From an uncultured virus (IMG/VR IMGVR_UViG_3300005573_000061) (Duplodnaviria > Heunggongvirae > Uroviricota > Caudoviricetes): a DNA stretch of 20,000 nucleotides. A program made the position numbers and the translations under genes. Each line of letters opens with the position of its first letter. Positions within the stretch are counted from its first letter, which is position 1. The stretch lies in IMG/VR virus record IMGVR_UViG_3300005573_000061; one strand, 5' to 3'. The notes under the pieces are model-generated. The model made no database searches. It was given only the letters and a program-made list of their open reading frames with translations, and was not told where the DNA came from. Positions 1 to 18,773 of this stretch are shown here, one piece after another.

Positions 1-1132
1 CCAGAGTATTGAAATCGGCCTGAATCAGGTTGGTGACACGATTAGCGAAATTACGAGCACGCTTCTTGAGATTTTGAAGGCGCTTCTGACTAGCGGTGAG
101 GCTCTTAGTGCTCTGACCATTAAGATGACCCGCAACCTGCTCCAAATTCCCAGCATACTCACTAGCAGCGATAACAAAATCTGCCCACGCATCGGCATGC
201 ATTTGGAAAGTATCCGGACGAAGCCGAGCGGTGGTCCCACCAGACTTGATATCGGGAAGCTCAGGGAAAGTACCGAAAAGACGAAGCTGAGCAGCATTCA
301 AACGAGAGCCCAACTTAACCATCTTATCCTCAGCCTCAGTGAATTCACGACGGCAGATGTTACGCACCTCTCCAAGCATGCCCATCAAGGACCGCTCCGA
401 GAAATCATTACCCAAAGCATCACGTACGTAGCTACGAAGCTCATGCGCCTCATCGAAGATGACCGAATCGTATTCACCAAGCAGTGCATTGGAAAACACC
501 AGATCCATGGCGAACACTGCGTGATTGACGACCACGATATTCGCATCAGCCGAATTCTTACGAGCACGAGCGGCGCAGCAACGCAGAGCGGGATCCTTCA
601 TGCACCGATTATCACCACAAAACTCGGAATCCGAGCGGACCTTATTCCAGGTAGACCAGGGAATCTCACGCCCCATGATCGTCTCAAAAGACTCCTTCTC
701 ACCAGAAAAGGTAATCGGCTGCTCGTTAAGGATACGCAGCATCTCGCCAAGCTCAGGAGCTTCAGCGGGATCCAAACCCTCAGCACGAGAAGCACAGAAA
801 TAGTTGCTGCGGCCCTTAAGGAGAGCCCACTTAAACTTGAAATTGAAAGCCTCAGCCATAAAGCTCTCAAGAGTAGGGAGATCCTTGCTCACGATCTGGT
901 CCTGAAGAGCCTTGGTAGCGGTGGAATAAACCACTCGCTTACCGGTAAGGATCGCTGGAATAAGAGCACCATAGCTCTTGCCGGTACCACAGCCAGCCTC
1001 ACCCAGCAGGTGAGATCCAGAAGCCAAGGCCGACTCAATGGCGGTAGCCAGCCGCTCTTGCGGCTCCCGGCGCTCGTAGCCAGGGATCATATCTGCGAGT
1101 CGGGCCTCAACCTCAGCGAACGTGGTGACCAT
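1..1132 (-). CDS. dinG: DinG/YoaA-family (XPD-like) Fe-S ATP-dependent DNA helicase, N-terminal part; 3' end lies outside the window
   Basis: Manual translation from ATG at 1132 (SD GAGAGGT upstream), with no stop to the window edge: MVTTFAEVEARLADMIPGYERREPQERLA (Q motif), EAGCGTGKS (Walker A), STATKALQDQ (Ia), LKGRSNYFC ... FCGDNRCMKDPALRCC (Fe-S cysteines), VVVNHA, IFDEAH (motif II). It is absent from the ORF track; the listed + ORF 74..1138 is its in-register antisense shadow. Confidence 0.95.
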   Translation of the reverse strand, partial: MVTTFAEVEARLADMIPGYERREPQERLATAIESALASGSHLLGEAGCGTGKSYGALIPAILTGKRVVYSTATKALQDQIVSKDLPTLESFMAEAFNFKFKWALLKGRSNYFCASRAEGLDPAEAPELGEMLRILNEQPITFSGEKESFETIMGREIPWSTWNKVRSDSEFCGDNRCMKDPALRCCAARARKNSADANIVVVNHAVFAMDLVFSNALLGEYDSVIFDEAHELRSYVRDALGNDFSERSLMGMLGEVRNICRREFTEAEDKMVKLGSRLNAAQLRLFGTFPELPDIKSGGTTARLRPDTFQMHADAWADFVIAASEYAGNLEQVAGHLNGQSTKSLTASQKRLQNLKKRARNFANRVTNLIQADFNTL

Positions 1133-1464
1133 GTATAGATTCTACCTCTCTAGGGGGAAGTCTAAACCTCAATGAACAAAATTTTTGCGAGCACGCTTGG
1201 TGGCAGCGGCAGCGCTCATGCCACAACTCTCCACAACTCTACCCATCCTGTCAAGATCCTAAACATGTTCCCTTTGTCCGAATTTTAGGGCACGCCCATC
1301 CCTGATCCCGACCCTGGCGGGTGCGCCCCGTACTCTTAAACAGGTTGACCCCTTCAGCCTACCCAAGCACTGAGGGGGTCTAAACCTAAGCTACGATCAC
1401 GGCACCGGGTCTACGAGGATGGTAGGCATCGACATATCTGTATTATACCCAACCATCCCAAGAC

Positions 1465-2070
1465 TCAAACCCCACACATCAGCGATGTTTGAGGCCAAGC
1501 CGACCACCCAGCCTGAGCCAGTACCCGCTGCGCCACTGTGATTTGCTCAGAAGGACTAGTGTACTGAGGCATGGAAGCAAACTGCGCTCCCCCATTGGCT
1601 AGCCAGGTAGATTCCAGAAATTGGAGGCCACCGTAATAGCCATTTCCCGTATCGATAGACCAATTTCCTCGGGACTCATAATGGGCAATGCAAGACCAAA
1701 TTCCATAATTAGCAGCCGTTTGTACGGGCGCTGGGGTGGGTGTCACCGGTAGATACGCCACCGAATGATGGACTACCGGGGTGGGTGCAATATTTATCAA
1801 TGCCACCCTGGTTTGGAATCGCTTCGGTGGAATTCTAAAAATCTGACCAGTGAAAATCAGATTTGGATCTGCAATATGATTGAATTCGGCAAACTGCTGC
1901 CAGGTTCTTCCATAGCGAGAGGCAATCCCTGAGAGGGTGTCTCCTGTATGGACACGCACCACTGGTGTATTTGTCGAAATTGGCTGAGCAGATGCTCTAC
2001 CAGTAAATGATGCAATAAACAATGTGGCAACAAGTCCACATAAAATAGCAATTTTTGCTACTCGGCGCAT
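1465..2070 (-). CDS. rpf: Secreted resuscitation-promoting factor: signal peptide + LysM + Pro/Thr linker + Rpf (transglycosylase-like) domain, 201 aa
   Basis: Start moved to ATG 2070 (AAGGAG 6 nt upstream). Sec-type signal peptide MRRVAKIAILCGLVATLFIASFTGRASA. LysM VRVHTGDTLSGIASRYGRTWQQFAEFNHIADPNLIFTGQIFRIP (~1829-1959). Rpf signature WSCIAHYESRGNWSIDTGNGYYGGLQFLESTW...EQITVAQRVLAQAGWSAWP (~1468-1698), with the catalytic Glu present. Confidence 0.93.
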   Translation of the reverse strand: MRRVAKIAILCGLVATLFIASFTGRASAQPISTNTPVVRVHTGDTLSGIASRYGRTWQQFAEFNHIADPNLIFTGQIFRIPPKRFQTRVALINIAPTPVVHHSVAYLPVTPTPAPVQTAANYGIWSCIAHYESRGNWSIDTGNGYYGGLQFLESTWLANGGAQFASMPQYTSPSEQITVAQRVLAQAGWSAWPQTSLMCGV

Positions 2071-2173
2071 TCTTGGCTCCTTTTTAGGGGGGTTACGGTT
2101 GCGTCGAAGCATATTTTCTCTTATGCCACAACACAGTTTAGATGCGACTTGCATCCTTATGTTTGAAGCGACC

Positions 2174-2203
2174 ACGCTAGTACATGGGGCTACTGGCTGT
2201 CAA
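2174..2203 (-). promoter_or_regulatory. Putative sigma70/SigA-type promoter for rpf
   Basis: TTGACA (2203-2198) - 18 nt - TAGCGT (2179-2174, TAnnnT), about 100 nt upstream of the rpf start. Confidence 0.55.
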
Positions 2204-2204
2204 T

Positions 2205-2438
2205 TCATGGATTACTTGAATATATTTCAGCCAATCTTTGATCAAAGACCTCAAGTATTTTCAATGCTTCTGTGTCTGTATCATACTCAACCAGGAAGGG
2301 AACCTCATAAAAAAGGTTTCTAATCTTAGCTGCCAAGGAAAGACTCAAATCGTCTTTGTCTATGACAAACTCTAATTCTGATAGAATCTCATACTTTTCA
2401 GAATTATCATGCAAATACCACATGAACTTATATTTCAT
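2205..2438 (-). CDS. Small acidic hypothetical protein (77 aa)
   Basis: The ORF fills the gap between tRNA-Thr(CGU) and the rpf promoter and has AAGGA upstream of ATG. No recognisable motif. Confidence 0.65.
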   Translation of the reverse strand: MKYKFMWYLHDNSEKYEILSELEFVIDKDDLSLSLAAKIRNLFYEVPFLVEYDTDTEALKILEVFDQRLAEIYSSNP

Positions 2439-2459
2439 TTTTGATCCTTGGTGGTCTAG

Positions 2460-2531
2460 AGCTTCCTAGCGGATTCGAACCGCTTTCTTTTCTTTACGAG
2501 AGAAATGTTTTACCGAGTAAACTAAGGAAGC
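2460..2531 (-). tRNA. tRNA-Thr (anticodon CGU)
   Basis: Cloverleaf: acceptor GCTTCCT/AGGAAGC, D arm GTTT..AAAC, anticodon arm TTTCT-CT CGT AA-AGAAA, T arm AGCGG-TTCGAAT-CCGCT. No encoded CCA. Confidence 0.92.
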
Positions 2532-2545
2532 TGGGTATAAACCCC

Positions 2546-2896
2546 TTACGACAGCTTGAAATCAAGATTCTGGCCGCTCAAATTAACCAAAACGGATCCA
2601 GACTTGACATGAGGATATCCGGCTGATCCAGGTACATACTGAGTCAGTCCTGGTAGAGATAGACCAGCCTTCCCGGGAGGAGGGCTAAACAAGACGGCAC
2701 CCTTTGGGGTGTAACCACTTCCAGGCAAAAATAGCCCAAAGTCAGGACGCTTCTCTCCACCCCATGCAGGATTAGTTAGCTCAATTTTCCAGAATACAGC
2801 ATTTCCGTTACGGACTAACTCAATGCATTCATCCAAATTGTGATTTTCTACATACCAAGCGGGTGGTACTGGATTCATGATATCTACTGCTGCCAT
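2546..2896 (-). CDS. Hypothetical protein (116 aa, Pro/Gly-rich)
   Basis: Strong SD (AAGGAG) and its own promoter; lies between the two tRNA genes. No family recognised. Confidence 0.8.
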   Translation of the reverse strand: MAAVDIMNPVPPAWYVENHNLDECIELVRNGNAVFWKIELTNPAWGGEKRPDFGLFLPGSGYTPKGAVLFSPPPGKAGLSLPGLTQYVPGSAGYPHVKSGSVLVNLSGQNLDFKLS

Positions 2897-2924
2897 TTAA
2901 TTTCTCCTTTTTAGCCTCATCCCA

Positions 2925-2954
2925 AGTATAGCAAGATCCCCATGACTCAGTCAA
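2925..2954 (-). promoter_or_regulatory. Near-consensus sigma70/SigA-type promoter with extended -10
   Basis: TTGACT (2954-2949) - 18 nt ending TGC - TATACT (2930-2925), upstream of the SD of the 116-aa ORF. Confidence 0.7.
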
Positions 2955-2955
2955 G

Positions 2956-3027
2956 AGCCCACTACCTGAATCGAACAGGCATTTTTGCGTTACAAAGGCA
3001 ATGTTTTAGCCATTAAACTAAGCGGGC
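2956..3027 (-). tRNA. tRNA-Thr (anticodon UGU)
   Basis: Cloverleaf: acceptor GCCCGCT/AGTGGGC, D arm GTTT-AATGGCTA-AAAC, anticodon arm TTGCC-TT TGT AA-CGCAA (C31.C39 mismatch), T arm GCCTG-TTCGATT-CAGGT. No encoded CCA. Confidence 0.88.
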
Positions 3028-3044
3028 ATTAGCGTATTTTTTAC

Positions 3045-3362
3045 ATATATGGATACATATATGGATACTTATATGGATACATATATGGATATATATATGA
3101 ATGCTTATTATATATATAATAAAAACCATATATAGATTTAATTATTAAATACATATATATATAATAAAAATCATATATATAATAAAACTATATATAGGTA
3201 TTTATTATTATATATATATATAATAAAAATAAAAATCATATATAGATTTTAATTAAATACATATATGTTTTTATTATATATATATCTATATACTTATTAT
3301 AAAACTTATAAGGATTCATATAAGTACCCATATAGTACCTATATAGTACCTATATAGTATTC
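3045..3362. repeat. AT-rich repeat region, candidate replication origin
   Basis: Five 12-bp ATATATGGATAC-like units (3045-3104); a central near-pure A/T tract with perfect palindromes (3105-3122, 3205-3226) and a duplicated ~50-bp block; three to four 11-bp ATATAGTACCT-like units (3318-3362). Non-coding and located between divergent transcription units. Confidence 0.8.
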
Positions 3363-3402
3363 TTATTAAGAACCCATTATAGGTTGCCACACCCAAATCC
3401 AC

Positions 3403-3432
3403 TTGTCAAATCGCTACCCAGATATGTATATT
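3403..3432 (+). promoter_or_regulatory. Putative promoter for the SNF2-like operon
   Basis: TTGTCA (3403-3408) - 18 nt - TATATT (3427-3432). ATG at 3442 follows 9 nt later with no SD, suggesting a leaderless or near-leaderless mRNA. Confidence 0.5.
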
Positions 3433-3441
3433 GGCACGATA

Positions 3442-5025
3442 ATGACCACGTACAAGACACCCCCTTTTGAATTACACCCATTTCAATGGCACATAATCGA
3501 AGATGCTATCCAGTCCACATCCAAGATCATGGGAGCTGACTGTGGGATGGGCAAGGGGGTTATGTCGATTTTCGTAGCCTGCTGGCTGTACGACAATGGA
3601 CTTATTGATCATATTCTACTGGAGTGCGAAAAGAATAAATTCAATGAGTGGAAGAGCGAGCTAGCCAGATATTCCACATTTAGTGTTGCGTACCTAGATA
3701 CACCCAAGGGGAGAGACGAAGCTTTCGCTAATCCACCAGAGGTGCTTTTGGGAGTCTACGAGACAGTCCGAAACTACGCCTCAGAGCTAGCTGTAAAATC
3801 CGTAGAGGGCCGGGAACGCAAATCATGGGTGACAGGACCCCTTACCGAATCTTTGGCCGGGAAAAGAATTTTGTGGATCGCTGATGAGGGTCCAGCGAAG
3901 CTGGGTGCTAGTCGATCCTCAGCAATCTACAAATCCCATGAAAAGATGTTAAAAGATTTGCGTAAAGCTGGGTCTGTGAGGGCTCTGTCGTTGACAGCCA
4001 CTTACATCAACCGGGACCCTCTTGGGTTTATAAACTTTTGTAGATTGATGGATCCCCACATATTTCCCCGAATTGTCCAGGCCGAAGAAGAGCACGTGGT
4101 CAAAGACCAATTCAACAATCCGATATTTTTTAAAAACTTAGACGAAAACGATACTCCTGCTGGGCAGAAATCCCTAAAAGAGAAAACATCTCATTTAATC
4201 ATTTTCAAACGTAAGACCGACCCAGATGTAATTCATTTATTTCCGAAGATTGAACCATCGTTTGAGTATGTTAGAATGGGGAATCTTCAACGAGATTTTT
4301 ATAATGCAGTCCTAAAGAAGGCAAAGCAGTCTTCGGCTTTTGAGGGAGCCAATTTCTTTTCTGTTTTACGTATGATTGCGGCCCACCCGTATTCTGTGGT
4401 ACGCTCGGTTGATAACGCCATCGCTGGCAAGAAGGATCCACCCGCACTTTCCAAATATTTAGTAGACACTTTAGGAAGAGATACTTTAGCGGTAATTCCA
4501 TCAGCTAAGGTTGATCGTTTGATTGAAATTATTCAAAGCTCTGACGAGCCAGCGGTGGTGTTTACCTTCTTTGGTCAATCTGTACTCCCATTGATCCACC
4601 AGGAATTTGAAAAGAATGATATTAAAACGTCGATCAACCACGGAAGCCTTAATTATACCCAAAGGGTCAGCGCTCAGTCAGATTTTAACTCAGGCAGAAC
4701 TCAGGTCTTTCTTACTTCGGACGCTGGAGCAAGAGGAATCAACCTGCCAGCAGCAGGCAGAGTATTTAACTTTGATGTTCCTCTCACATATGCAAACTGG
4801 TGGCAACGGGTCAATAGAGCTAATCGATTGGACTCACAGAAAGCTTCCACTAATATCATAGATATGGTGGTACAGGATTCTATCGAAGAGGGGATTTTGG
4901 AATTGGGATTGAAGCGGCACGCTTGGTCTGATTCTTTAACCCCCGAAGATGAGGATTCTCCAGACTATCTATCGGCAGCACAAAGACGAGAAATAATGAA
5001 TTTTACAAAGGACATAAATGGCTGA
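3442..5025 (+). CDS. SNF2-family (SF2) helicase/ATPase with atypical motifs
   Basis: LHPFQ, GADCGMGKG (motif I), IADEGP (II), LTAT (III), SAKVDRL/VVFTFF (IV), TSDAGARGINL (V), QRVNRANR (VI), DSIEE. The start is uncertain (TTG 3403, ATG 3424 or ATG 3442). Confidence 0.88.
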   Translation: MTTYKTPPFELHPFQWHIIEDAIQSTSKIMGADCGMGKGVMSIFVACWLYDNGLIDHILLECEKNKFNEWKSELARYSTFSVAYLDTPKGRDEAFANPPEVLLGVYETVRNYASELAVKSVEGRERKSWVTGPLTESLAGKRILWIADEGPAKLGASRSSAIYKSHEKMLKDLRKAGSVRALSLTATYINRDPLGFINFCRLMDPHIFPRIVQAEEEHVVKDQFNNPIFFKNLDENDTPAGQKSLKEKTSHLIIFKRKTDPDVIHLFPKIEPSFEYVRMGNLQRDFYNAVLKKAKQSSAFEGANFFSVLRMIAAHPYSVVRSVDNAIAGKKDPPALSKYLVDTLGRDTLAVIPSAKVDRLIEIIQSSDEPAVVFTFFGQSVLPLIHQEFEKNDIKTSINHGSLNYTQRVSAQSDFNSGRTQVFLTSDAGARGINLPAAGRVFNFDVPLTYANWWQRVNRANRLDSQKASTNIIDMVVQDSIEEGILELGLKRHAWSDSLTPEDEDSPDYLSAAQRREIMNFTKDING

Positions 5026-5365
5026 GCATCTTTTTTCCTATCTAGATGAAAATTTTGAAGAATTGATTGAGGAGATTGCCCCTCGGGAGAACCTGAAATA
5101 CTTATATGAGTTTCAGATTGCTCCTACCCAGCAAGGTCCCCAACCTATCATTTTGTTTGTATTGACTGCCCCTTCCGGCGTGCTAGGTCAAGAGGTTTTG
5201 TCGATTCGTCCTATGCCTTTAGCTTTGGCATCGAACCCAGATGCCATCAAGTCTTTGCTTCGGGATATATGGGCAGAGATGCAAGCCCAGCGTGCTGATG
5301 TGTTGGGGCAAAATCATGATAATGCAATTGATGTAAATTCCAAGTTGATCGTTCCGGGGAAATAA
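5018..5365 (+). CDS. Hypothetical protein (115 aa, acidic)
   Basis: Overlaps the helicase stop by 8 nt; SD AAGGA; protein-like composition. Confidence 0.8.
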   Translation: MAEHLFSYLDENFEELIEEIAPRENLKYLYEFQIAPTQQGPQPIILFVLTAPSGVLGQEVLSIRPMPLALASNPDAIKSLLRDIWAEMQAQRADVLGQNHDNAIDVNSKLIVPGK

Positions 5366-5369
5366 GTAA

Positions 5370-5735
5370 ATGGAAATAGTCAACGGGGAACAAGAGCTTC
5401 GGGAAATTATCCACAACTATCTAGAAGAATCTTTCAAAGATGAGCCGGGTAAAATTTCATACAGCGTTACTCTAATCAATAGTACCCATCTATGTAGAAA
5501 CCACGGCATAGAGATTACCCCGTGTTATAGGGTTGCTATTTTCTTTAATACTCAAGATGAAACGGAAGCAGTTTTTAGAGCCGATGATATATTTGATGTT
5601 GTACTAGCGCATCAACAGATTGTTGAATGGTTAGATGACATTGTGGATTCCTATCGAATCGGTAGTTTGGAGTTGTCTCTTTTACATTCTGATCAAACCC
5701 ATGATTATTACGATCAGGAAGATACTGATAATTAG
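5370..5735 (+). CDS. Hypothetical protein (121 aa, strongly acidic)
   Basis: Starts 4 nt after the previous stop. Its stop codon overlaps the stop of the convergent 1594-aa gene. Confidence 0.8.
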   Translation: MEIVNGEQELREIIHNYLEESFKDEPGKISYSVTLINSTHLCRNHGIEITPCYRVAIFFNTQDETEAVFRADDIFDVVLAHQQIVEWLDDIVDSYRIGSLELSLLHSDQTHDYYDQEDTDN

Positions 5736-8700
5736 GTAGTAGTTACGCTACTGGCGCTCACTGATGCTGTAAGGGTTATAGTGCCCAAAGGTGGGTATAT
5801 CTGAGTCTCTTCGTGACCCTGGACAATCTGTCCCACTATAGCTTGGTCATCATTGACACCGATTCGGTAGTAAGAAATCGTATCCTTGAATCCGGCACCG
5901 ATATCGCTCGTAACAATTCTGGTGAAGTGACCATTTATGTGGTTTGCTACATCCGAGAAGTTAAAGCTATCAAACGTGTTGGCGATCTTATGGATAATAG
6001 AAGATGCTGAATCCAAGAATGAGCCGCTAATTGTTTCACTTTCAACAGCATTGATAAATTGGCTGAACTGGTTAGTAACTACACCGTCAGGGAACAAATT
6101 AGGAGATTGCTGATAGCCAAGGAACCACCATTTTGGAATAGGCAAATTCCAAGTTTGGAATACTGGGTCATCGAAAATATCCGGAAGCGTATCTGCTGGA
6201 TTTACATTAGGTCCGCTCATAATTGGGTGAACTACTCTATTGAGTTTATTGGCATAGAGCGGACGCATTTGTAGATACGTCACATACATGTTGTTTCTAA
6301 AACAGGTAGCTCTCCAAATAAGCTGGTTACCAGGCAACGGAAACGTCAAGCTTCCACGAGGATTATTGCGAACGCCTGTTGCTTGATAGAAGGTAACTCC
6401 ACCATCGTTGGAGAATTCCCAAACGATTGACTCATCAAACACGGATAATCTGTTGATTTCAACGATATCGCTGGATTCACCTTTTTGCACCACAGCTACC
6501 ATCAAAACATCACTCACGGTAGAGTTGGGTACCGAGCCAATATCATATACATCATAATATTCAGTAATCTGATTTTCAGCTAGACCAGTAATTTCAGATT
6601 CCCAAATTGGATTTCCAGTAATAGTATCAATTAGCTGAAGGTACCAAGGATTAGTAATTGGGGTTAGAGGCACCATGCGAATAGCTACCCACGCTCTACC
6701 TGCGGGAGAAAGAATGAGCCCACCATTAGCCAATCCACCTGCACCATATCCAAGTGAATCAGAGCTATGATTATTACCCAAAATGAGATGTTCTGGTTGG
6801 TGAATGTCACCAATTTGGTATGGATCCTGGGCGTTTTCTTGAGCAATATTGATGCGACGAGAAATGATGATACTGCTATTGATTGAATTGTAACTCAGGT
6901 TAGATGGACCCACATCTCCCACAGCATGCCAAGTAGACGTATCAGTCCAATTGTTTTGTTGTAGCGACGTAGCAATAAACGAATCGTCAGTTACGCACTG
7001 ATATGGTTCGCTTTGCTGCGTAGCAAATTGAACGCCCGTCACATCGGTATAAGAAAAATAGGTTTGGGACTGAGCCACTACAGGCAAAAGATTTGATTGT
7101 GAGGGTGCGGGAGAGATAAGCATTCCTTCTTGCTGATCCCAACTATTTGATTCAATATGAGAATTGTCGTAAAAATGTTCTTTGTAAACATCGGTATCAT
7201 ATTCGGCAGAGATGTTGGTCAAACTCAAAGCAATCTGTTTGAATCCACAGAAGTATGAAACTTTGTTTACCGGCGCTATAGACGAAGTAACATATGTCAT
7301 AGGAGCAATACCGTCTGTCATGGGAGCAGATTGGCCCTGATGATAATCTGAATATGAATAGGCAGGAGACTGGGCTAATGCCTGTGCATATTCAGGATCT
7401 CTAGCTACCATTACTCCCATTGAGCTAGTGGTTAGAGTGTTGGCTGTAGTAGATGGAGGGGTGGGAGATGTTTGTGAATATGGATAAGGGCTCTGTCCCA
7501 AATTACTATTCAACAAAGTAGCAAACCCGGGGGGATTGCTGCCAGGATTTCCAGGTGTAGCAATGCCAGGAGAGATTGCTCCATCGGTAAATGTATTTAC
7601 CGATCGACTAACTGGCATAAATCCTTCGTATTGTTCAGCAGCAAGATTGGTCATCTCAAATCGAATGAAAGATGCACGGATTGGCTCAATAGAGATATTA
7701 CCCTTTGTTAGTACAAAGTCACCCGGGATTGGGGTCCAATTAATATTTGGATAGAAAGAGGTAGGACCGCCTACCATCCCGGTTGGATTCAAATCAGTAA
7801 CAAAGTTAGAGTTATAACGCAAAACTGCGTTGTTTGTGTTGTCTTGTGTGTACACCGAATAGTATTCGCCCTTGTAGGTGTAAGAAGAAGGATCGGTAAA
7901 GAAACTATTGATAGTGTAATTATTGAGAGTTTCGTTCTTAAGTACAAGGTTGTACAGAAGCATTCCTGAAGTAGAAGGTGCTGTTACATTAGCATCATTG
8001 ATTCCACCGATGGTGATATAAGTGCTCAGTGGTGTAAGATCAGATTCAGCGCTTGGAGCAGCAAAGAACTGGTTGACGATAGCGTTTGATCCGATTTGGA
8101 AAGACAAGAACCATCCAGCAGATGTGCATCCAGCTACCAGGGTGATATGAGATCCTAAAGGCAAAATAGCCGGTACAGTTACTTGGTTTCCAGCCGATGG
8201 GCTGATGGCAAACCATTGGTTACCATAATCGTAATAAACGACGGTACCCTCAAGATCGATCAGAGGAATAATGCCAGTTTCATCGGTGGCATTAGAGATA
8301 AATTCTAATCCTACCCACCAATCGGCATTGGGGTTATATTGCACCGCTGAATTCTGTATAGAGATATCTCCCAATGTTCCTGTACTTTGAGGAAATTGAA
8401 GACCTGTCCCAGTATCATAAACATTTCCCGAAATTATAGCAATGGGAGCGGTCAATGAGGTATCGTTTGCCTCATTGGTGGTTGATGGGATGACCGGATC
8501 ATTACTCCAATACAAAGTTGCGTGGACTCCAATATGGGTGGGGTCCACATAGATAGTATCAATTTGTTGAGCGTTTCCATTACCATCTCTTGTATCAATA
8601 ACATAATTGACTACAGCATTAACTATTGGCTGCGGCTCACATCTCCACTGGGTGGGACTATTTTGTATTGGCCCATTGGGGGATTCACTGTAAAGCTTGT

Positions 8701-10516: not shown

Positions 10517-12961
10517 TTAGGCTCCATTTTGGAACGTGTTAGCTGCTCTCAAGATTAAATTAACTCCATTGAGCACAGGCAACGTATCGTCATTTAGTCT
10601 TATGTCCGTTGCTCGGCTAATAGACCCCACCGTCCCACTGTTGGTTGAGTAAGTTTCAACCAGTGCTCCCGCAGATGTAAATTCTTGAATTGCATAGTTT
10701 GACGCATCATCAGCCGATGTAGCAAATCGTACTGATTGAATACCAGGAACTGGACCCACCGCACTGAGAATGGCAGATGTAGAAACGATGCCATCAAAAC
10801 CAATGGAGTTAAAAACTGCTTGGATAGCAGATTCTACCAATGATTGTACTGAAGAAATGGTACTCCCTGATCCCAGCACCACCACAAGATTGACAACAAA
10901 GTAAATTAGAATAGCTTGATGGACCCATACATCACTAGTGATCATGCGCCATCCCTGAAGAGCGGTTTCAATTTCACTGGGTAAAGCGTTATAGTCATAG
11001 CTCAAATTTATGAGTGAATTGGCTGGTGGGAGAGCGGGGGCAGAAACGGGGGATGTGGTAAATTCAATTCCAGAATAACTATGAGCGGTACCACCCTGAG
11101 CGGTTATATCGTTGACCAACCAATAATCTACGCCCAGATAATAAGTTTGGGCTCCCACATCGCTAGCTTGGCCCTGGTCGGTCGAAACAAGAATGCCACC
11201 AATTGTTTGGTAGCTGGAGCTAGTGACTGGCGTTCCACCCGAACTAGCGATAGAAATTTGAGAAGGTAATTCAGTGACCGGGGTAAATCCAAGAGGAATA
11301 AAGTAGTTGCCTGAAACAGGGTTACTTCCGTCCGGTCGCTTAAAATTCTGCACATAATACGGGCTAGTGGTTGAATTATTGAACGCTATATTTGTAGTGA
11401 ATGGAATCGTTTGCGTAGCCTGCTGAATATCATTACCGGCTACATAAATGTCTACTTTGTTTATTACACCATTGGCTGGATCATTACGGCTACAAATGGG
11501 TGTGTAATCAAATTGAAATTCATAAATACCGTCTGGGAAATTTTTAGCATCAATTGAAGTTACAGTAGGAGCATATCCGCTTGTATTGGTAGATGGTTGA
11601 GCTTGCCCGTAGGAAGTAGGACCGACAGAGCCTCCCGATGTGTATGCAGAGGTAACATTAGCGGTGATCTGAAAATTGGTTGCATTGATAACGGTTACAG
11701 TCCAGTTACCATTTGCTTGGGTAGCTCCTTCTACTCCTGATATGGTTGCTTGTTCACCGGTTACTAACCCATGAGGAGAAGATGTGGTAACAGTGGATGG
11801 GTTAGATTGAGTTATATTAGAAATGGCAGCGCTGGATATTCCTTCATCATTCCACCCAGATGCCGTAGCAGGAACAATTGCCACTAATGTTTCAGATCCC
11901 GATACTGATCCTTCATAAATGTAGACCCATTGCGCACCGGCTCGTGCCACCCAGGTTAATTCGGCAGCACTACCGGCCGAAGCTATATCCACCGAAACGC
12001 TAGATGATGCAGAGCTTATTCCGGTTTCATTACCCCAAGCGATGCGATAATATCTCGTACCTGTATATGTTGCTGTTGCATTGGTCACCGAAGATACGGC
12101 AAAGTTATCCGGGGAGCTAGTGCTAGGTGCGCTCAATGCGTATGTATTTGGATTGATGGTATAGTTAACATTAGGCGTCAAAAGGTCCCCACCACTGATA
12201 CTGGGACCAAACACATAATTTTGATCATAGATATATTTGGCGGATTGAACCTCTGATTGACCAGTCCCATTAATTACCTGTAATTGTTCATCCCATACTT
12301 TATAGGCACCTATCACGTTAGCCGCCGTGGTATTGGGGTTTTCTAGAGCCGTTCCCAAATACTGAGAAACTGTACCTGCTAAGTTACGGAATACGGTATT
12401 TTTGAATCTGTTAATTAGGGATTGGTCTGATTCAGCATCATTGCCTCCCGAAGTAGCGGAGGTATTAGTAACTGCTGTGATACCATTGAGAGGGGTAGTG
12501 ATAGCATTGATTTGATTAGCCTCTACATTGCCCGTAGAGCCAGCTACAGTTGCCACCACTGGCACATCTACACTCACAGATCCCAGTGATAATGTCGAGG
12601 TAGTAATTACGGTGAATTTAACTACAGGGCTACTATTAGTAGAAACTGTTGTGCCAGCTTGAATAGAGATAGCTTGGGTTGCTGGTGATGGTGTCGTAAA
12701 AGTGACTACACCGCTAGCTCTAGTAGCTGGAAATCTGGTAAAGCCAAATTCATTTACGAAATCATCTAGTGATGTTCCTGTCAGAGAAGAAATATCATAC
12801 TGATTGTTTATAAAGTATTGATTGACATACGCAGACGAAAGCTGAGAAGAAAATTGATCAATTACCTTACGTAACGGCGTACCAATACTGGTATCCAAAT
12901 TAGGCTCTGTGACCAATAGCCCTTGTGTTATTTGAGAAGCAATATCGGAAGCTGATGGCAT
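10517..12961 (-). CDS. Baseplate J/gp47-family wedge protein with inserted domains, 814 aa
   Basis: Typical J signatures: LTGTSLDDFVNEFGFTRFPATRASGVVTF, VPVVATVAGSTGNVEANQI, VTNTSATSGGNDAESDQSLINR. Confidence 0.93.
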   Translation of the reverse strand: MPSASDIASQITQGLLVTEPNLDTSIGTPLRKVIDQFSSQLSSAYVNQYFINNQYDISSLTGTSLDDFVNEFGFTRFPATRASGVVTFTTPSPATQAISIQAGTTVSTNSSPVVKFTVITTSTLSLGSVSVDVPVVATVAGSTGNVEANQINAITTPLNGITAVTNTSATSGGNDAESDQSLINRFKNTVFRNLAGTVSQYLGTALENPNTTAANVIGAYKVWDEQLQVINGTGQSEVQSAKYIYDQNYVFGPSISGGDLLTPNVNYTINPNTYALSAPSTSSPDNFAVSSVTNATATYTGTRYYRIAWGNETGISSASSSVSVDIASAGSAAELTWVARAGAQWVYIYEGSVSGSETLVAIVPATASGWNDEGISSAAISNITQSNPSTVTTSSPHGLVTGEQATISGVEGATQANGNWTVTVINATNFQITANVTSAYTSGGSVGPTSYGQAQPSTNTSGYAPTVTSIDAKNFPDGIYEFQFDYTPICSRNDPANGVINKVDIYVAGNDIQQATQTIPFTTNIAFNNSTTSPYYVQNFKRPDGSNPVSGNYFIPLGFTPVTELPSQISIASSGGTPVTSSSYQTIGGILVSTDQGQASDVGAQTYYLGVDYWLVNDITAQGGTAHSYSGIEFTTSPVSAPALPPANSLINLSYDYNALPSEIETALQGWRMITSDVWVHQAILIYFVVNLVVVLGSGSTISSVQSLVESAIQAVFNSIGFDGIVSTSAILSAVGPVPGIQSVRFATSADDASNYAIQEFTSAGALVETYSTNSGTVGSISRATDIRLNDDTLPVLNGVNLILRAANTFQNGA

Positions 12962-17606: not shown

Positions 17607-18773
17607 TTATACCGATGTATAGCCTTTGTCACTCCAGATGGACAAGGAGTTTTGAACTGCCGGATCTCCTGTATTTAATCCTACTCCCGCCATTAAAGCC
17701 TTTAAGATTGGTCCATACCAATTAGTAGTTTGAGGAGGAGTAGTTGTGAAGATATCTACGTATGCCTGAAGACCCTGTTGCCAAGAAGTATAAGCCTGTA
17801 CTCCTGAGCCGGGGGCGCCCGTAGCATAATTGACAGACCCTGGGAGTTGTAAACCACAGTTAAATGGATTGTATTTGGCGGTATTGCCCCAGTTACCACC
17901 TTCTTTTCCGTACCAATTATTAAGAGATGTAATATTGGCTGCTGTTTGAGGGGCGCCCAATGCCTTGAGTAAAGCTACTGACCAATCTTGATAATTAGCA
18001 ATTGAGCCAGGATCCGATACCGTACCGGCATGACCTTGAGCACTTGACGCTGAAGTCGGTGGTGTACTATCTCCTTGCGATGAAAGTGTTTGCTCGCCCG
18101 GTAGACCAAATTGTTGATTGACCTGTCCAGCATTGATGGGCTTGGTTGAGGACTCAAAGACATTACCCATGTATCCAGTTTCCTTATATCCAAGTCCCGC
18201 CTTGAGTCTGGCGATATAAGCGTTTGATGCTGCTCTTACCAAATTTCCCCCGGTATTATCTGCATCAATCATCAATGTCAGATGCCAATCAGGAGCAAAA
18301 TTTTCATTTTGAAAGTCGATAGCCATTCCGGATGCTGACCCATAGCTTTTAAGATATACCATGAAGTCATAATTACGCTGAGGGTAAAAAAATCTAACAG
18401 GTCCATGGGGGGCTTTAGCGTATGCCAAAGGAGATGCCTGATAATTAGCCAGATTCATCATGTCCTCTAAGAATTTGGCTTGTTCTTGCCATCCACCAGC
18501 ACCGAAAGTACCAATAATATTCAGATCCCCTAATTCCACCCCGAATACCTGGACTACCATCCCTCCAATAGTAGGGGTTTCTGATGCTTTTACTCTATAG
18601 TCCAATGATATTTTAGTGGGATTGAGGCGAAAATGTACCCCATTGAGCACAGCGTTTTGGTAGCCGCTGAGATTGCGGCCAAGAAAGCTAGACCTCACGC
18701 CAGGGTTTGGACCCTTATTGACAAAATTATTGGTTTTGCCAAATGGTTGGGGGAGTCTAGGGTTAGCCACCAT
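17607..18773 (-). CDS. Tail tube-initiator-like protein with C-terminal lysozyme-like (peptidoglycan hydrolase) domain, 388 aa
   Basis: The N-terminal FRLNPTKISLDY...TPTIGGMVVQVFG...LNIIGTFG pattern is typical of post-tape-measure proteins. After an S/Q/P linker comes WYGKEGG...YNPFN...GVQAYTSWQQGLQA, resembling a lysozyme-fold domain. Confidence 0.7.
   Translation of the reverse strand: MVANPRLPQPFGKTNNFVNKGPNPGVRSSFLGRNLSGYQNAVLNGVHFRLNPTKISLDYRVKASETPTIGGMVVQVFGVELGDLNIIGTFGAGGWQEQAKFLEDMMNLANYQASPLAYAKAPHGPVRFFYPQRNYDFMVYLKSYGSASGMAIDFQNENFAPDWHLTLMIDADNTGGNLVRAASNAYIARLKAGLGYKETGYMGNVFESSTKPINAGQVNQQFGLPGEQTLSSQGDSTPPTSASSAQGHAGTVSDPGSIANYQDWSVALLKALGAPQTAANITSLNNWYGKEGGNWGNTAKYNPFNCGLQLPGSVNYATGAPGSGVQAYTSWQQGLQAYVDIFTTTPPQTTNWYGPILKALMAGVGLNTGDPAVQNSLSIWSDKGYTSV

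What the first reader, a model, noticed from the sequence alone, without database searches (positions are those of the whole stretch)
1465..2203. Stand-alone secreted LysM-Rpf gene in an apparent phage genome: possible phage-encoded 'wake-up' signal for dormant hosts
Seen: a complete signal peptide-LysM-linker-Rpf gene with its own promoter and SD, outside the virion operon and next to phage-like tRNAs and ORFans. Known: Rpfs are actinobacterial muralytic enzymes that resuscitate dormant cells. In phages I mainly know Rpf-like motifs as parts of tape-measure proteins. Inference: infected cells could secrete this protein to revive neighbouring dormant cells and create new hosts, or to remodel their own wall. 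It could alternatively be a signal-peptide endolysin.
Basis: partly seen in the sequence, partly recalled or inferred. Interest (0 to 1): 0.85.

Follow-up and report, generated by a model that had tools for sequence, protein, structure and literature searches.

The report
Phage-encoded exported LysM-Rpf wall enzyme
A large uncultivated phage carries a real gene for a secreted cell-wall-cutting enzyme of the bacterial "resuscitation-promoting factor" type; such genes turn out to be common in phages of this group, and whether they wake sleeping hosts or simply help lysis is still untested.

Summary
The gene is real. Window 1465-2070 (-) encodes 201 aa: signal peptide, LysM, Pro/Thr linker, Rpf domain (Pfam 48 and 90 bits; model on RpfB at 0.6 Å). 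The SD is present; a separate promoter is not supported.

Both flanks are viral. The DinG-like helicase on the left has relatives in 58 IMG/VR loci. 36 of these also carry the window's SNF2 helicase and 19 its tail-fibre gene, so no host junction is indicated.

The kind is not new. Cultured actinophages (BRock, Alone3, REQ1, Weasels2, prophi79-1) already carry annotated exported stand-alone Rpf genes. 249 IMG/VR stretches encode relatives, PHROGs holds such families, and this scan noted similar genes on other DNA.

Two points are new. The protein belongs to a subfamily whose conserved Cys pair has moved one helical turn: 11 of the 80 viral loci kept, 0 of 80 kept from cellular genomes. Where neighbours can be named, they are replication genes, never lysis or virion genes.

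Three cultured phages inspected also have a separately annotated endolysin, so the gene is more likely an accessory than the endolysin.

Best reading (about 0.4): an exported enzyme, probably made early, that supplies Rpf activity to the host wall. "Wake-up of neighbours" remains possible and untested. Interest is moderate.

The parts
1465..2070 (-). CDS, 201 aa: signal peptide, LysM, Pro/Thr linker, Rpf domain (stop codon TGA at 1467-1465)
   Evidence: ORF and translation; Pfam LysM and PF06737; exact protein P0002 in the public collection on 3 contigs, longest 127,062 bp
2077..2082 (-). Shine-Dalgarno AAGGAG, 6 nt upstream of ATG 2070
   Evidence: read from the sequence
1987..2070 (-). residues 1-28: predicted Sec signal peptide (MRRVAK, hydrophobic core, ASA before Gln29)
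   Evidence: hydrophobicity heuristic; pLDDT under 50 for residues 1-30 in the model; homologues have like N-termini. No SignalP was run
1828..1956 (-). residues 39-81: LysM peptidoglycan-binding domain
   Evidence: Pfam PF01476, E 8.9e-13; pLDDT 92-95; Foldseek LysM matches
1474..1704 (-). residues 123-199: Rpf catalytic domain. Glu132 codon at 1677-1675; relocated Cys pair Cys127 (1692-1690) and Cys199 (1476-1474)
   Evidence: Pfam PF06737, 90 bits; phmmer to RpfB 3eo5, E 5.6e-22, with Glu132 aligned to the Glu that follows Cys in RpfB; Foldseek TM 0.94-0.96 (normalised to the target), rmsd 0.6-0.7 Å to 4emn; Cys positions
2071..2204 (-). upstream spacer between orf77 and the gene; no supported promoter
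   Evidence: no minus-strand site
1133..1464 (-). 332-nt spacer (GC 0.52) between the gene and the helicase. It holds two hairpins just after the stop codon and a promoter-like TTTAGA-16-TAGAAT ending 6 nt before the helicase ATG
   Evidence: fold z-score -1.2, so not unusually structured
2..1132 (-). N-terminal 377 aa of a 660-aa DinG-like helicase, co-directional and downstream of the Rpf gene
   Evidence: Pfam DEAD/DEAD_2 and phrog_2488; full-length P0122; 58 IMG/VR loci with relatives
2205..2438 (-). orf77, no family hit; upstream and co-directional
2459..2531 (-). tRNA-Thr (CGT)
   Evidence: ARAGORN; Rfam, 66 bits
2546..2896 (-). orf116, no family hit
2955..3027 (-). tRNA-Thr (TGT)
   Evidence: ARAGORN; Rfam, 58.4 bits
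3030..3400 (.). AT-rich (GC about 0.24) iteron and inverted-repeat region between the divergent Rpf-side and SNF2-side units; candidate origin or control region
3403..5025 (+). SNF2-family helicase, divergent from the Rpf-side unit
   Evidence: Pfam and PHROG; 100% identical over the 499 residues aligned in near-identical record G001

Best explanation
Window 1465-2070 (-) is a genuine gene of a large (contig about 127 kb), 43%-GC tailed phage. The phage is related to big actinobacterial myoviruses.

Shown or strongly indicated: the product is a 201-aa pre-protein. It has a Sec-type signal peptide (residues 1-28), one LysM peptidoglycan-binding domain, a disordered Pro/Thr linker and a C-terminal Rpf-type lysozyme-like domain. 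The domain keeps its catalytic Glu (E132).

The domain belongs to a subfamily in which the usual Cys pair (one Cys just before the Glu, one after AWP) is replaced. The replacement pair is shifted by four residues in both segments (C127 and C199).

Inferred: the protein is exported as it is made, so it cannot be a virion part. The signal peptide is cleaved, LysM holds the protein on the wall, and the Rpf domain nicks glycan strands from outside the membrane.

The gene stands in a co-directional run with a DinG-like helicase, leading away from an AT-rich iteron region. Its closest phage homologues sit beside FEN, DnaC/DnaB or primase-polymerase genes. I therefore infer early or middle expression.

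Inferred role: an accessory one. The phage supplies Rpf activity to the infected cell's wall and so keeps or returns a slow-growing or dormant host in a growth-competent state that favours phage replication. Enzyme released at lysis could act on neighbouring cells as well. It is probably not the main endolysin.
For: Gene and domains. Glu132 aligns with the RpfB Glu and is invariant in 24 of 24 aligned homologues. The AF2 model has pLDDT 93-97 over the Rpf domain and superposes on RpfB 4emn with TM 0.94-0.96 (normalised to the target) and rmsd 0.6-0.7 Å.

Export: the N-terminal pattern. 10 of 11 viral subfamily members show a like hydrophobic N-terminus. All 13 subfamily domains keep exactly two Cys, whereas 4 tape-measure-embedded Rpf motifs (1385-2047 aa ORFs) and one 692-aa cellular ORF have none. 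That fits an extracytoplasmic disulfide.

Viral on both sides: baseplate, hub and fibre genes resemble those of Mycobacterium cluster C-type phages (e.g. Myrna, Cali) and of Rhodococcus E3 and Gordonia Skog phages. The helicase matches phrog_2488 and large phages. 58 IMG/VR loci encode relatives, the best at 55-56% identity over the full length. Within 10 kb, 36 of these 58 also have the SNF2 helicase and 19 of 58 the 1594-aa fibre protein.

A complete 156,983-bp relative, G002, has the same module order and a LysM + Rpf-like gene between FEN and a DnaC-like gene.

Replication-gene neighbourhood of subfamily genes: FEN, DnaC and DnaB at L242/L092 and L247; Prim-Pol at L262 and L271; HTH or HNH genes at L251 and L241. 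No lysis or structural neighbour was recognised among the 75 neighbouring ORFs scanned.

Accessory rather than sole endolysin: REQ1 has a second lysin, Orf83, after its tail genes. BRock gp40 and Alone3 gp187 are annotated endolysins beside the Rpf gene. A review states that no mycobacteriophage endolysin known then had a signal peptide or SAR sequence (PMC6116114, passage).

Rationale: host rpf genes go up during phage WC1 infection, and the authors suggest the phage drives this to prevent dormancy (PMC10986025, passages). Host Rpf loss reduced infection by two mycobacteriophages (meeting report PMC12908700, one passage).
Against: No expression, activity or secretion data exist for this or any homologous phage gene that I could find. 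The timing is inferred from gene neighbourhood alone.

In BRock and Alone3 the Rpf-LysM gene lies only three genes from the annotated endolysin and runs in the same direction. That fits a lysis helper at least as well.

PF06737 domains do serve as catalytic modules of Cluster A mycobacteriophage endolysins (PMC3314691, passages).

In the complete relative G002, I recognised no classical stand-alone endolysin or holin among the 137 ORFs scanned, out of 186 called. The only other muralytic domains are in tail-module proteins. An endolysin role in this lineage is therefore not excluded.

The rest of the window's own 127-kb contig could not be seen.

Composition steps at about 2100: helicase GC3 is 0.55, the Rpf gene 0.42 and the structural genes 0.30-0.38. 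The near-identical record G001 starts only at about window 3198. Continuity of the left 3 kb thus rests on synteny in relatives, not on reads.

With the Cys-bearing columns left out, the window's Rpf domain (a long branch) no longer groups with the other subfamily members in the free tree. The constrained tree is nevertheless better by 34.6 log-likelihood units and is not rejected (p-AU 0.76).
Confidence: 0.42

Rival explanations
1. Lysis enzyme. The protein is a Sec-exported endolysin or lysis helper. It accumulates in the wall and is unleashed, or simply adds glycan-cutting activity, when a holin depolarises the membrane at the end of infection.
For: LysM matches PHROG endolysin families 380, 291 and 7348. 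PF06737 is the central catalytic domain of eight Cluster A LysA endolysins (PMC3314691). Signal-peptide endolysins exist in other phages (review passage, PMC6116114). REQ1 Orf63 of like design is annotated 'lysin'. BRock gp43 and Alone3 gp184 sit three genes from the endolysin. No classical endolysin or holin was recognised in relative G002 among 137 of 186 ORFs scanned.
Against: No holin-like or lysis gene adjoins the gene in the window or at any of the 11 subfamily loci examined; where neighbours can be named they are replication genes. REQ1, BRock and Alone3 all have another annotated endolysin. 'Lysin' and 'endolysin' here are depositor annotations, not assays.
Confidence: 0.3
2. Paracrine 'wake-up' factor. 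The enzyme's selected function is on neighbouring dormant cells, creating new susceptible hosts, rather than on the producer.
For: Cellular Rpfs are described as secreted growth factors that resuscitate dormant cells (PMC1084345, abstract and passages). The protein is exported and would also be freed at lysis. It is conserved across a phage lineage.
Against: LysM should hold much of the enzyme on the producer's own wall. No data on diffusion or activity exist. A benefit to kin phage is needed for selection. Nothing in the sequence distinguishes a paracrine from an autocrine action.
Confidence: 0.15
3. Not a phage function. The left 3 kb is host chromosome (a prophage junction), an assembly chimera, or a recently captured passenger gene of no use to the phage.
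For: GC rises from about 0.43 to 0.50-0.55 left of about 2100. Record G001 begins inside the AT-rich repeat region. The best full-length cellular matches are only 34-40% identical, so a donor cannot be named. Read laying over the junction could not be done.
Against: The helicase family is found on 58 IMG/VR loci, adjacent to the same SNF2 and fibre genes. The top 120 helicase relatives sit on contigs of at most 166 kb. Related phages carry LysM-Rpf genes of the same relocated-Cys subfamily. Rpf GC3 (0.42) lies within the phage's range, with SNF2 at 0.44. No integrase or att-like feature was seen in the window.
Confidence: 0.05

Closest known systems
Streptomyces phage BRock gp43 and Alone3 gp184 (annotated transglycosylase / hypothetical protein)
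   Same: Stand-alone, about 190 aa, with an N-terminal signal-peptide-like segment, one Rpf domain and one LysM, encoded by 112-116 kb phages outside the tape-measure gene. Rpf domain 55-56% identical to the window's.
   Different: Domain order is Rpf then LysM (here LysM then Rpf). The Cys pair is canonical (A-Q-C-E-S ... W-P-V-C). The genes lie three genes from the annotated endolysin, not beside replication genes.
Rhodococcus phage REQ1 Orf63 ('lysin'), Weasels2 gp46 ('transglycosylase'), Mycobacterium phage prophi79-1 gp102 ('resuscitation-promoting factor')
   Same: Exported stand-alone Rpf-domain proteins of cultured actinophages. REQ1 Orf63 follows a primase/polymerase gene. Weasels2 gp46 lies among nucleotide-metabolism genes. 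Both resemble the replication context seen here.
   Different: Canonical Cys positions. Other or no accessory domains (REQ1: 358 aa with a C-terminal LysM; prophi79-1: 102 aa, Rpf only). High-GC hosts.
M. tuberculosis RpfB catalytic domain (PDB 3eo5, 4emn) and cellular LysM-bearing Rpfs (Micrococcus luteus Rpf type)
   Same: Same fold (TM 0.94-0.96 normalised to the target, 47% identity), the same catalytic Glu and the same TGNGYYGGLQF core. Secreted, and LysM-anchored in the non-mycolate subfamily (PMC1084345).
   Different: Phage-encoded. The disulfide-forming Cys pair has moved four residues in both segments. LysM is N-terminal.
Rpf motifs inside mycobacteriophage tape-measure proteins (TM4, Barnyard, Babsiella and others) and the TG domain of Cluster A LysA endolysins
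   Same: The same PF06737 domain, 50-55% identical (PMC1796659, listing only; PMC3314691, passages).
   Different: Those are internal modules of 1400-2000-aa virion proteins or three-domain cytoplasmic endolysins, without a signal peptide. The four tape-measure-type motifs I extracted have no Cys at all.
SP-LysM-Rpf proteins of Saccharibacteria/Parcubacteria MAGs
   Same: Best full-length cellular matches: 34-40% identity over residues 1-201, the same domain order, and in some a similar low GC.
   Different: Canonical Cys pair; cellular contigs of 100-290 kb; no phage context examined.
Enterococcus phage VRE9_2 'transglycosylase' (phrog_4602)
   Same: Signal peptide, LysM and a small lysozyme-like C-terminal domain, 188 aa, in the early region of a 140-kb phage. 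30% identity over 93% of the query.
   Different: The C-terminal domain is not PF06737; the host is a Firmicute.

Membership tests
Rpf / Transglycosylase-like domain (Pfam PF06737) | Profile match above the curated cut-off | tested here: met
   90 bits against a cut-off of 27, residues 123-194 covering profile positions 5-76 of 77
Rpf / Transglycosylase-like domain (Pfam PF06737) | Conserved catalytic glutamate | tested here: met
   Glu132 aligns with the Glu that follows Cys in RpfB and is invariant in 24 of 24 aligned homologues. That this Glu is the catalytic residue is recalled, not taken from a call
Rpf / Transglycosylase-like domain (Pfam PF06737) | Compact lysozyme-like fold of solved Rpf domains | tested here: met
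   AF2 model pLDDT 93-97 over the domain; Foldseek to 4emn, 3eo5, 4ow1 and 4cge with target-normalised TM 0.82-0.96 for the single-domain chains (lower, 0.33-0.45, for the longer RpfB chains 3eo5 and 5e27), rmsd 0.6-1.8 Å
Rpf / Transglycosylase-like domain (Pfam PF06737) | Cys pair at the canonical positions (Cys directly before the Glu; Cys two residues after AWP) | tested here: not met
   Tyr131 and Thr195 occupy those positions. Cys occurs instead at 127 and 199, four residues away in each segment. The same paired shift occurs in all 13 subfamily domains.
Rpf / Transglycosylase-like domain (Pfam PF06737) | Muralytic and resuscitation-promoting activity | not testable with these tools
   needs zymogram and resuscitation assays
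LysM (Pfam PF01476) | Profile match and beta-alpha-alpha-beta fold | tested here: met
   48.4 bits against a cut-off of 20.9; model shows E37-39, H46-52, H57-63, E77-79; Foldseek LysM matches
Sec-exported protein | N-terminal signal peptide with a cleavage site | tested here: inconclusive
   Positive n-region, 16-residue hydrophobic core, A-S-A before Gln29. No dedicated predictor was available. Support comes from like N-termini in homologues
Phage endolysin / lysis cassette | Adjacent holin or other lysis genes; late-gene position | tested here: not met
   Neighbours are a helicase, two ORFs without family hits and tRNAs. At 11 related loci no lysis gene was recognised. The rest of the genome was not seen, so this holds only for the neighbourhood
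Tape-measure-embedded Rpf motif | Domain embedded in a tape-measure protein of more than 1000 aa | tested here: not met
   201-aa stand-alone ORF bounded by stops
PHROG 'transglycosylase' families 29757 and 4602 | Profile match | tested here: met
   E 2.5e-21 (residues 114-194) and E 8.5e-18 (residues 6-109)

The most novel reading that the evidence does not exclude
The relocated-disulfide LysM-Rpf proteins are a phage-specific clade of resuscitation-promoting factors. They are transcribed with the replication genes. The phage exports its own Rpf early in infection to force a dormant or slow-growing actinobacterial host (and, after release, its neighbours) back into wall growth. That would make dormancy a poorer refuge from these phages.
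Probability: 0.25. Interest if true: 0.8.

Novelty: new variant of a known kind. Interest (0 to 1): 0.4.

Why it matters
Dormancy is thought to shelter bacteria from phages. Rpf is the best-known protein signal for leaving dormancy in Actinobacteria.

If phages routinely export their own Rpf together with their replication genes, that would be a counter-dormancy strategy. It would parallel the phage-borne sporulation sigma factors of Firmicutes phages (a title seen in the listing only).

It would also give a practical handle: culturable phages with homologues exist for direct tests.

If the gene is only a lysis helper, it is an ordinary member of the already large set of phage wall hydrolases.

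The relocated Cys pair is a small, clean natural experiment on how the Rpf fold is stabilised.

Tried and rejected
- Own genome: not held. The nearest record, G001, covers only window positions from about 3198 onward, so the rest of the 127-kb contig was not seen.
The 124,458-bp contig carrying P0003 (47% identical, canonical Cys) could therefore not be examined.
- Megablast of window 1-6000 against cultured phages: no match.
- Single-protein scans of viral contigs found one locus for Rpf (L003) and none for the helicase fragment or SNF2. Alignment-based scans were needed.
- Sequencing runs: two DNA holders labelled 'hot springs metagenome', both possible sources of the window, so not independent. 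No RNA holder was listed.
Read-level continuity is untested.
- Metagenome scan: none of the 80 loci shared any other window gene.
- Rfam: only the two tRNAs.
- The 332-nt spacer downstream of the gene is not unusually structured (z-score -1.2).
- Promoter scan: at chance level.
- Disulfide geometry could not be measured, because model coordinates are not exposed to scripts (one search lists /data).
- Rejected, recent capture from the host: Rpf GC3 lies within the phage's range and relatives carry the same subfamily.
- Rejected, virion-associated lysin: a Sec signal is incompatible with cytoplasmic virion assembly (inference), and the hub already carries NlpC/P60.
- Literature searches found no paper testing the function of a stand-alone phage-encoded Rpf. 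Supplementary files were not consulted.
Full report
OBSERVATION

The minus strand holds an ORF ending at 1465. The longest version starts at GTG 2175 (236 aa). ATG 2070 is the better start for three reasons. It is preceded by AAGGAG at 2082-2077, with a 6-nt spacer. Homologues start at the aligned Met. The public gene call is the same 201-aa protein, P0002, seen on 3 contigs, the longest 127,062 bp, in three source collections.

Pfam finds LysM (residues 39-81, 48.4 bits, cut-off 20.9) and the Rpf-type Transglycosylase-like domain PF06737 (residues 123-194, 90 bits, cut-off 27).

The N-terminus reads MRRVAK, then a 16-residue hydrophobic core, then A-S-A before Gln29. That is a classical Sec signal by eye and by hydropathy. 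No dedicated predictor was available.

Residues 82-122 are a Pro/Thr/Val-rich linker with low model confidence.

The claimed separate promoter is not supported. No sigma-70-like site was found on the minus strand upstream, and the scan as a whole is at chance (12 found, 11.7 expected).

IS THE CONTIG VIRAL ON BOTH SIDES?

Right of the gene lie two tRNA-Thr genes and two ORFs without family hits. Then comes a 370-bp AT-rich iteron region, a divergent SNF2 helicase, and a contractile-tail baseplate module: Baseplate_J, a hub with NlpC/P60, and a 1594-aa fibre-like protein. The best cultured relatives of this module are 142-165 kb actinobacterial myoviruses: Mycobacterium cluster C-type phages such as Myrna and Cali, Rhodococcus E3 and Gordonia Skog, at 28-32% identity.

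Left of the gene is the N-terminal 377 aa of a DinG-like helicase (phrog_2488, E 9.6e-26). The full protein is 660 aa (P0122). Its 120 best relatives all sit on contigs of at most 166 kb.

A profile scan of IMG/VR found 58 loci encoding relatives, the best at 55-56% identity over the full length. Within 10 kb of the helicase, 36 of 58 also encode a homologue of the window's SNF2 helicase. 19 of 58 encode the 1594-aa protein, and several encode Baseplate_J.

One relative, G002, is a 156,983-bp record rated complete, at 62% GC. Its gene order is tail, hub, Baseplate_J, fibre, SNF2, then (across the record's ends) DinG helicase. It also carries WhiB, Pol III alpha, RecA, RNR, DnaB, primase, ThyX and FEN.

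Caveats remain. GC rises left of about 2100 (helicase GC3 0.55, Rpf 0.42, structural genes 0.30-0.38, SNF2 0.44). The near-identical record G001 begins only at about window 3198. The SNF2-orf115-orf121 block is inverted in the window relative to L088-L092 and G002.

WHAT THE PROTEIN IS

phmmer against solved structures gives M. tuberculosis RpfB at E 5.6e-22, with Glu132 aligned to the Glu that follows Cys in RpfB. An AlphaFold2 model (mean pLDDT 80.5; 93-97 over the Rpf domain) superposes on RpfB, RpfC and RpfE crystal structures at rmsd 0.6-1.1 Å, with TM 0.94-0.96 (normalised to the target) for 4emn.

One defining feature differs. The canonical Cys directly before the Glu and the Cys after AWP are replaced by Tyr131 and Thr195. 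Cys appears instead at 127 and 199, four residues (one helical turn) away in both segments. I could not measure the Cys-Cys distance in the model.

THE RELOCATED-CYS SUBFAMILY

Among the 120 best database hits, 9 (including the query's own record) have this paired shift.

Counts among fetched loci:
- Viral contigs: 11 of the 80 best loci have it, 58 are canonical, 4 are Cys-free tape-measure ORFs and 7 were not matched by my pattern. L242 is the same record as L092.
- Metagenome loci: 2 of 80 have it (L009, L065). L009 is the same 77,172-bp contig as viral locus L245 and has PHROG-matching neighbours.
- Species-representative cellular genomes: none of the 80 best loci has it. The two pattern hits there also keep the canonical Cys.

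All 13 subfamily domains have exactly two Cys. The four tape-measure motifs and one 692-aa cellular ORF have none.

A tree of 230 distinct Rpf domains puts the 13 on one branch (SH-aLRT 96) when all columns are used. With the Cys-bearing ends removed, the window's long-branched sequence floats. The tree that holds the 13 together is nevertheless 34.6 log-likelihood units better than the free quick search found, and it is not rejected (p-AU 0.76). A single origin is therefore compatible with the data but not proven.

HOW COMMON IS A STAND-ALONE PHAGE Rpf?

It is common. tblastn against cultured phages hits 259 records. Many are tape-measure proteins, but stand-alone genes exist:
- BRock gp43 and Alone3 gp184: signal peptide, Rpf, LysM, about 190 aa.
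- Weasels2 gp46: signal peptide, Rpf.
- prophi79-1 gp102: annotated 'resuscitation-promoting factor', 102 aa.
- REQ1 Orf63: annotated 'lysin', signal peptide, Rpf ... LysM.

PHROGs holds two 'transglycosylase' families that match. IMG/VR yielded 249 confirmed stretches. Earlier notes of this scan describe like genes on other DNA. The existence of the gene type is therefore not new.

The window's version differs in three respects: the domain order (LysM first), the relocated Cys pair, and a 43%-GC phage from runs labelled 'hot springs metagenome'.

FUNCTION

A Sec signal means export during synthesis. This rules out a virion component (inference), and the hub already carries NlpC/P60.

Context points to the replication or early region. 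In the window the gene runs co-directionally into the DinG helicase and away from the AT-rich iteron region.

In relatives L092/L242 and L247 the subfamily gene lies between FEN and DnaC/DnaB. In L262, L271 and REQ1 it follows a primase-polymerase. In Weasels2 it lies among a thymidylate synthase and a methyltransferase. In G002 and G003 a LysM protein with a divergent Rpf-like domain (21.7 bits, below the cut-off) holds the same slot. No lysis or structural neighbour was recognised among the 75 neighbouring ORFs scanned at 10 subfamily loci.

REQ1, BRock and Alone3 each have another annotated endolysin. A review notes that no mycobacteriophage endolysin known then had a signal peptide (PMC6116114, passage).

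Set against this:
- BRock and Alone3 place the gene three genes from the endolysin.
- PF06737 does serve in Cluster A endolysins (PMC3314691, passages).
- I recognised no classical endolysin or holin among the 137 ORFs scanned in G002, out of 186 called.

A biological rationale for a phage-supplied Rpf comes from two papers. In the first, four of six host rpf genes are up-regulated through phage WC1 infection, and the authors suggest the phage drives this to prevent dormancy (PMC10986025, passages). The second is a meeting report that two mycobacteriophages infect Rpf-deficient hosts less well (PMC12908700, one passage).

I therefore rank the explanations as follows:
1. An exported accessory enzyme, expressed early or in mid-infection, that supplies Rpf activity to the infected cell's wall, with spill-over to neighbours possible: about 0.42.
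2. Lysis helper or endolysin: 0.30.
3. A primarily paracrine wake-up factor: 0.15.
4. An artefact or passenger gene: 0.05.

The remainder is left unassigned. All functional steps are inferred; none is shown.

LITERATURE

Five searches found no study of the function of a stand-alone phage-encoded Rpf. The papers I saw are these:
- PMC1084345: abstract start and passages. It covers the Rpf subfamilies, the LysM subfamily in non-mycolate actinomycetes and Rpf in a tape-measure protein. It states that the family is confined to Actinobacteria.
- PMC1796659: listing and abstract start only.
- PMC3314691, PMC10986025 and PMC6116114: passages.
- PMC12908700: one passage.

No supplements were read.

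VERDICT

It is a new variant (relocated Cys pair, LysM-first order, replication-module context) of an already known and widespread kind, phage-encoded exported Rpf enzymes. The wake-up idea is attractive and testable in culturable relatives, but unsupported by direct evidence. Interest is moderate (0.4).

Noticed in passing
window 3030-3400: A 370-bp region of GC about 0.24. It has five tandem 12-nt TACATATATGGA-type repeats on one side, related inverted copies on the other, and many AT-rich palindromes. It lies between divergent transcription units, so it is a candidate replication origin or control region. The near-identical IMG/VR record G001 starts inside it.
   Followed up: partly
window 3403-5735 versus L088-L092 and G002: The SNF2-orf115-orf121 block is inverted in the window relative to its orientation between the fibre gene and the DinG helicase in relatives. 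The window also has tRNAs, two ORFs without family hits and the Rpf gene inserted there. No tRNA was found in ten relatives' loci or in G002.
   Followed up: partly
L159-L167, L180 (genome contigs): The best full-length cellular matches (34-40% identity, same signal peptide-LysM-Rpf order, canonical Cys) are in Saccharibacteria and Parcubacteria MAGs. The Rpf family has been described as confined to Actinobacteria (PMC1084345 abstract).
   Followed up: no
L259, L264, L266, L305 (viral) and L171 (Gordonia genome): Rpf motifs embedded in 1385-2047-aa tape-measure ORFs, and in one 692-aa cellular ORF, have lost both Cys. All exported stand-alone forms examined keep a pair. This fits a disulfide that forms only outside the cytoplasm.
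   Followed up: partly
window 17607-18773 (-) versus G002 140304-142719: The 388-aa protein between the putative tape-measure gene and the hub (phrog_2786) has two tandem paralogues in G002. Their C-termini carry Amidase_2 and Glucosaminidase domains. The window's C-terminal half has no Pfam hit.
   Followed up: no
window 1133-1166 and 2-1132 (-): A promoter-like TTTAGA-16-TAGAAT ends 6 nt before the helicase ATG, suggesting a leaderless or near-leaderless mRNA. The helicase has a GC3 of 0.55, well above the rest of the window (0.30-0.44). This is unexplained.
   Followed up: no
L089 19077-19751; G002 12087-12761: In the slot after FEN, these relatives encode signal peptide-LysM plus a divergent small domain (C-x-x-x-R-E-S ... 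terminal Cys; PF06737 at only 21.7 bits). The catalytic module of this exported protein has diverged or been swapped within the lineage.
   Followed up: partly
window 10517-12961 (-): The Baseplate_J protein has an internal match to the ubiquitin-activating enzyme E1 FCCH domain (PF16190, 30.3 bits, residues 388-446).
   Followed up: no
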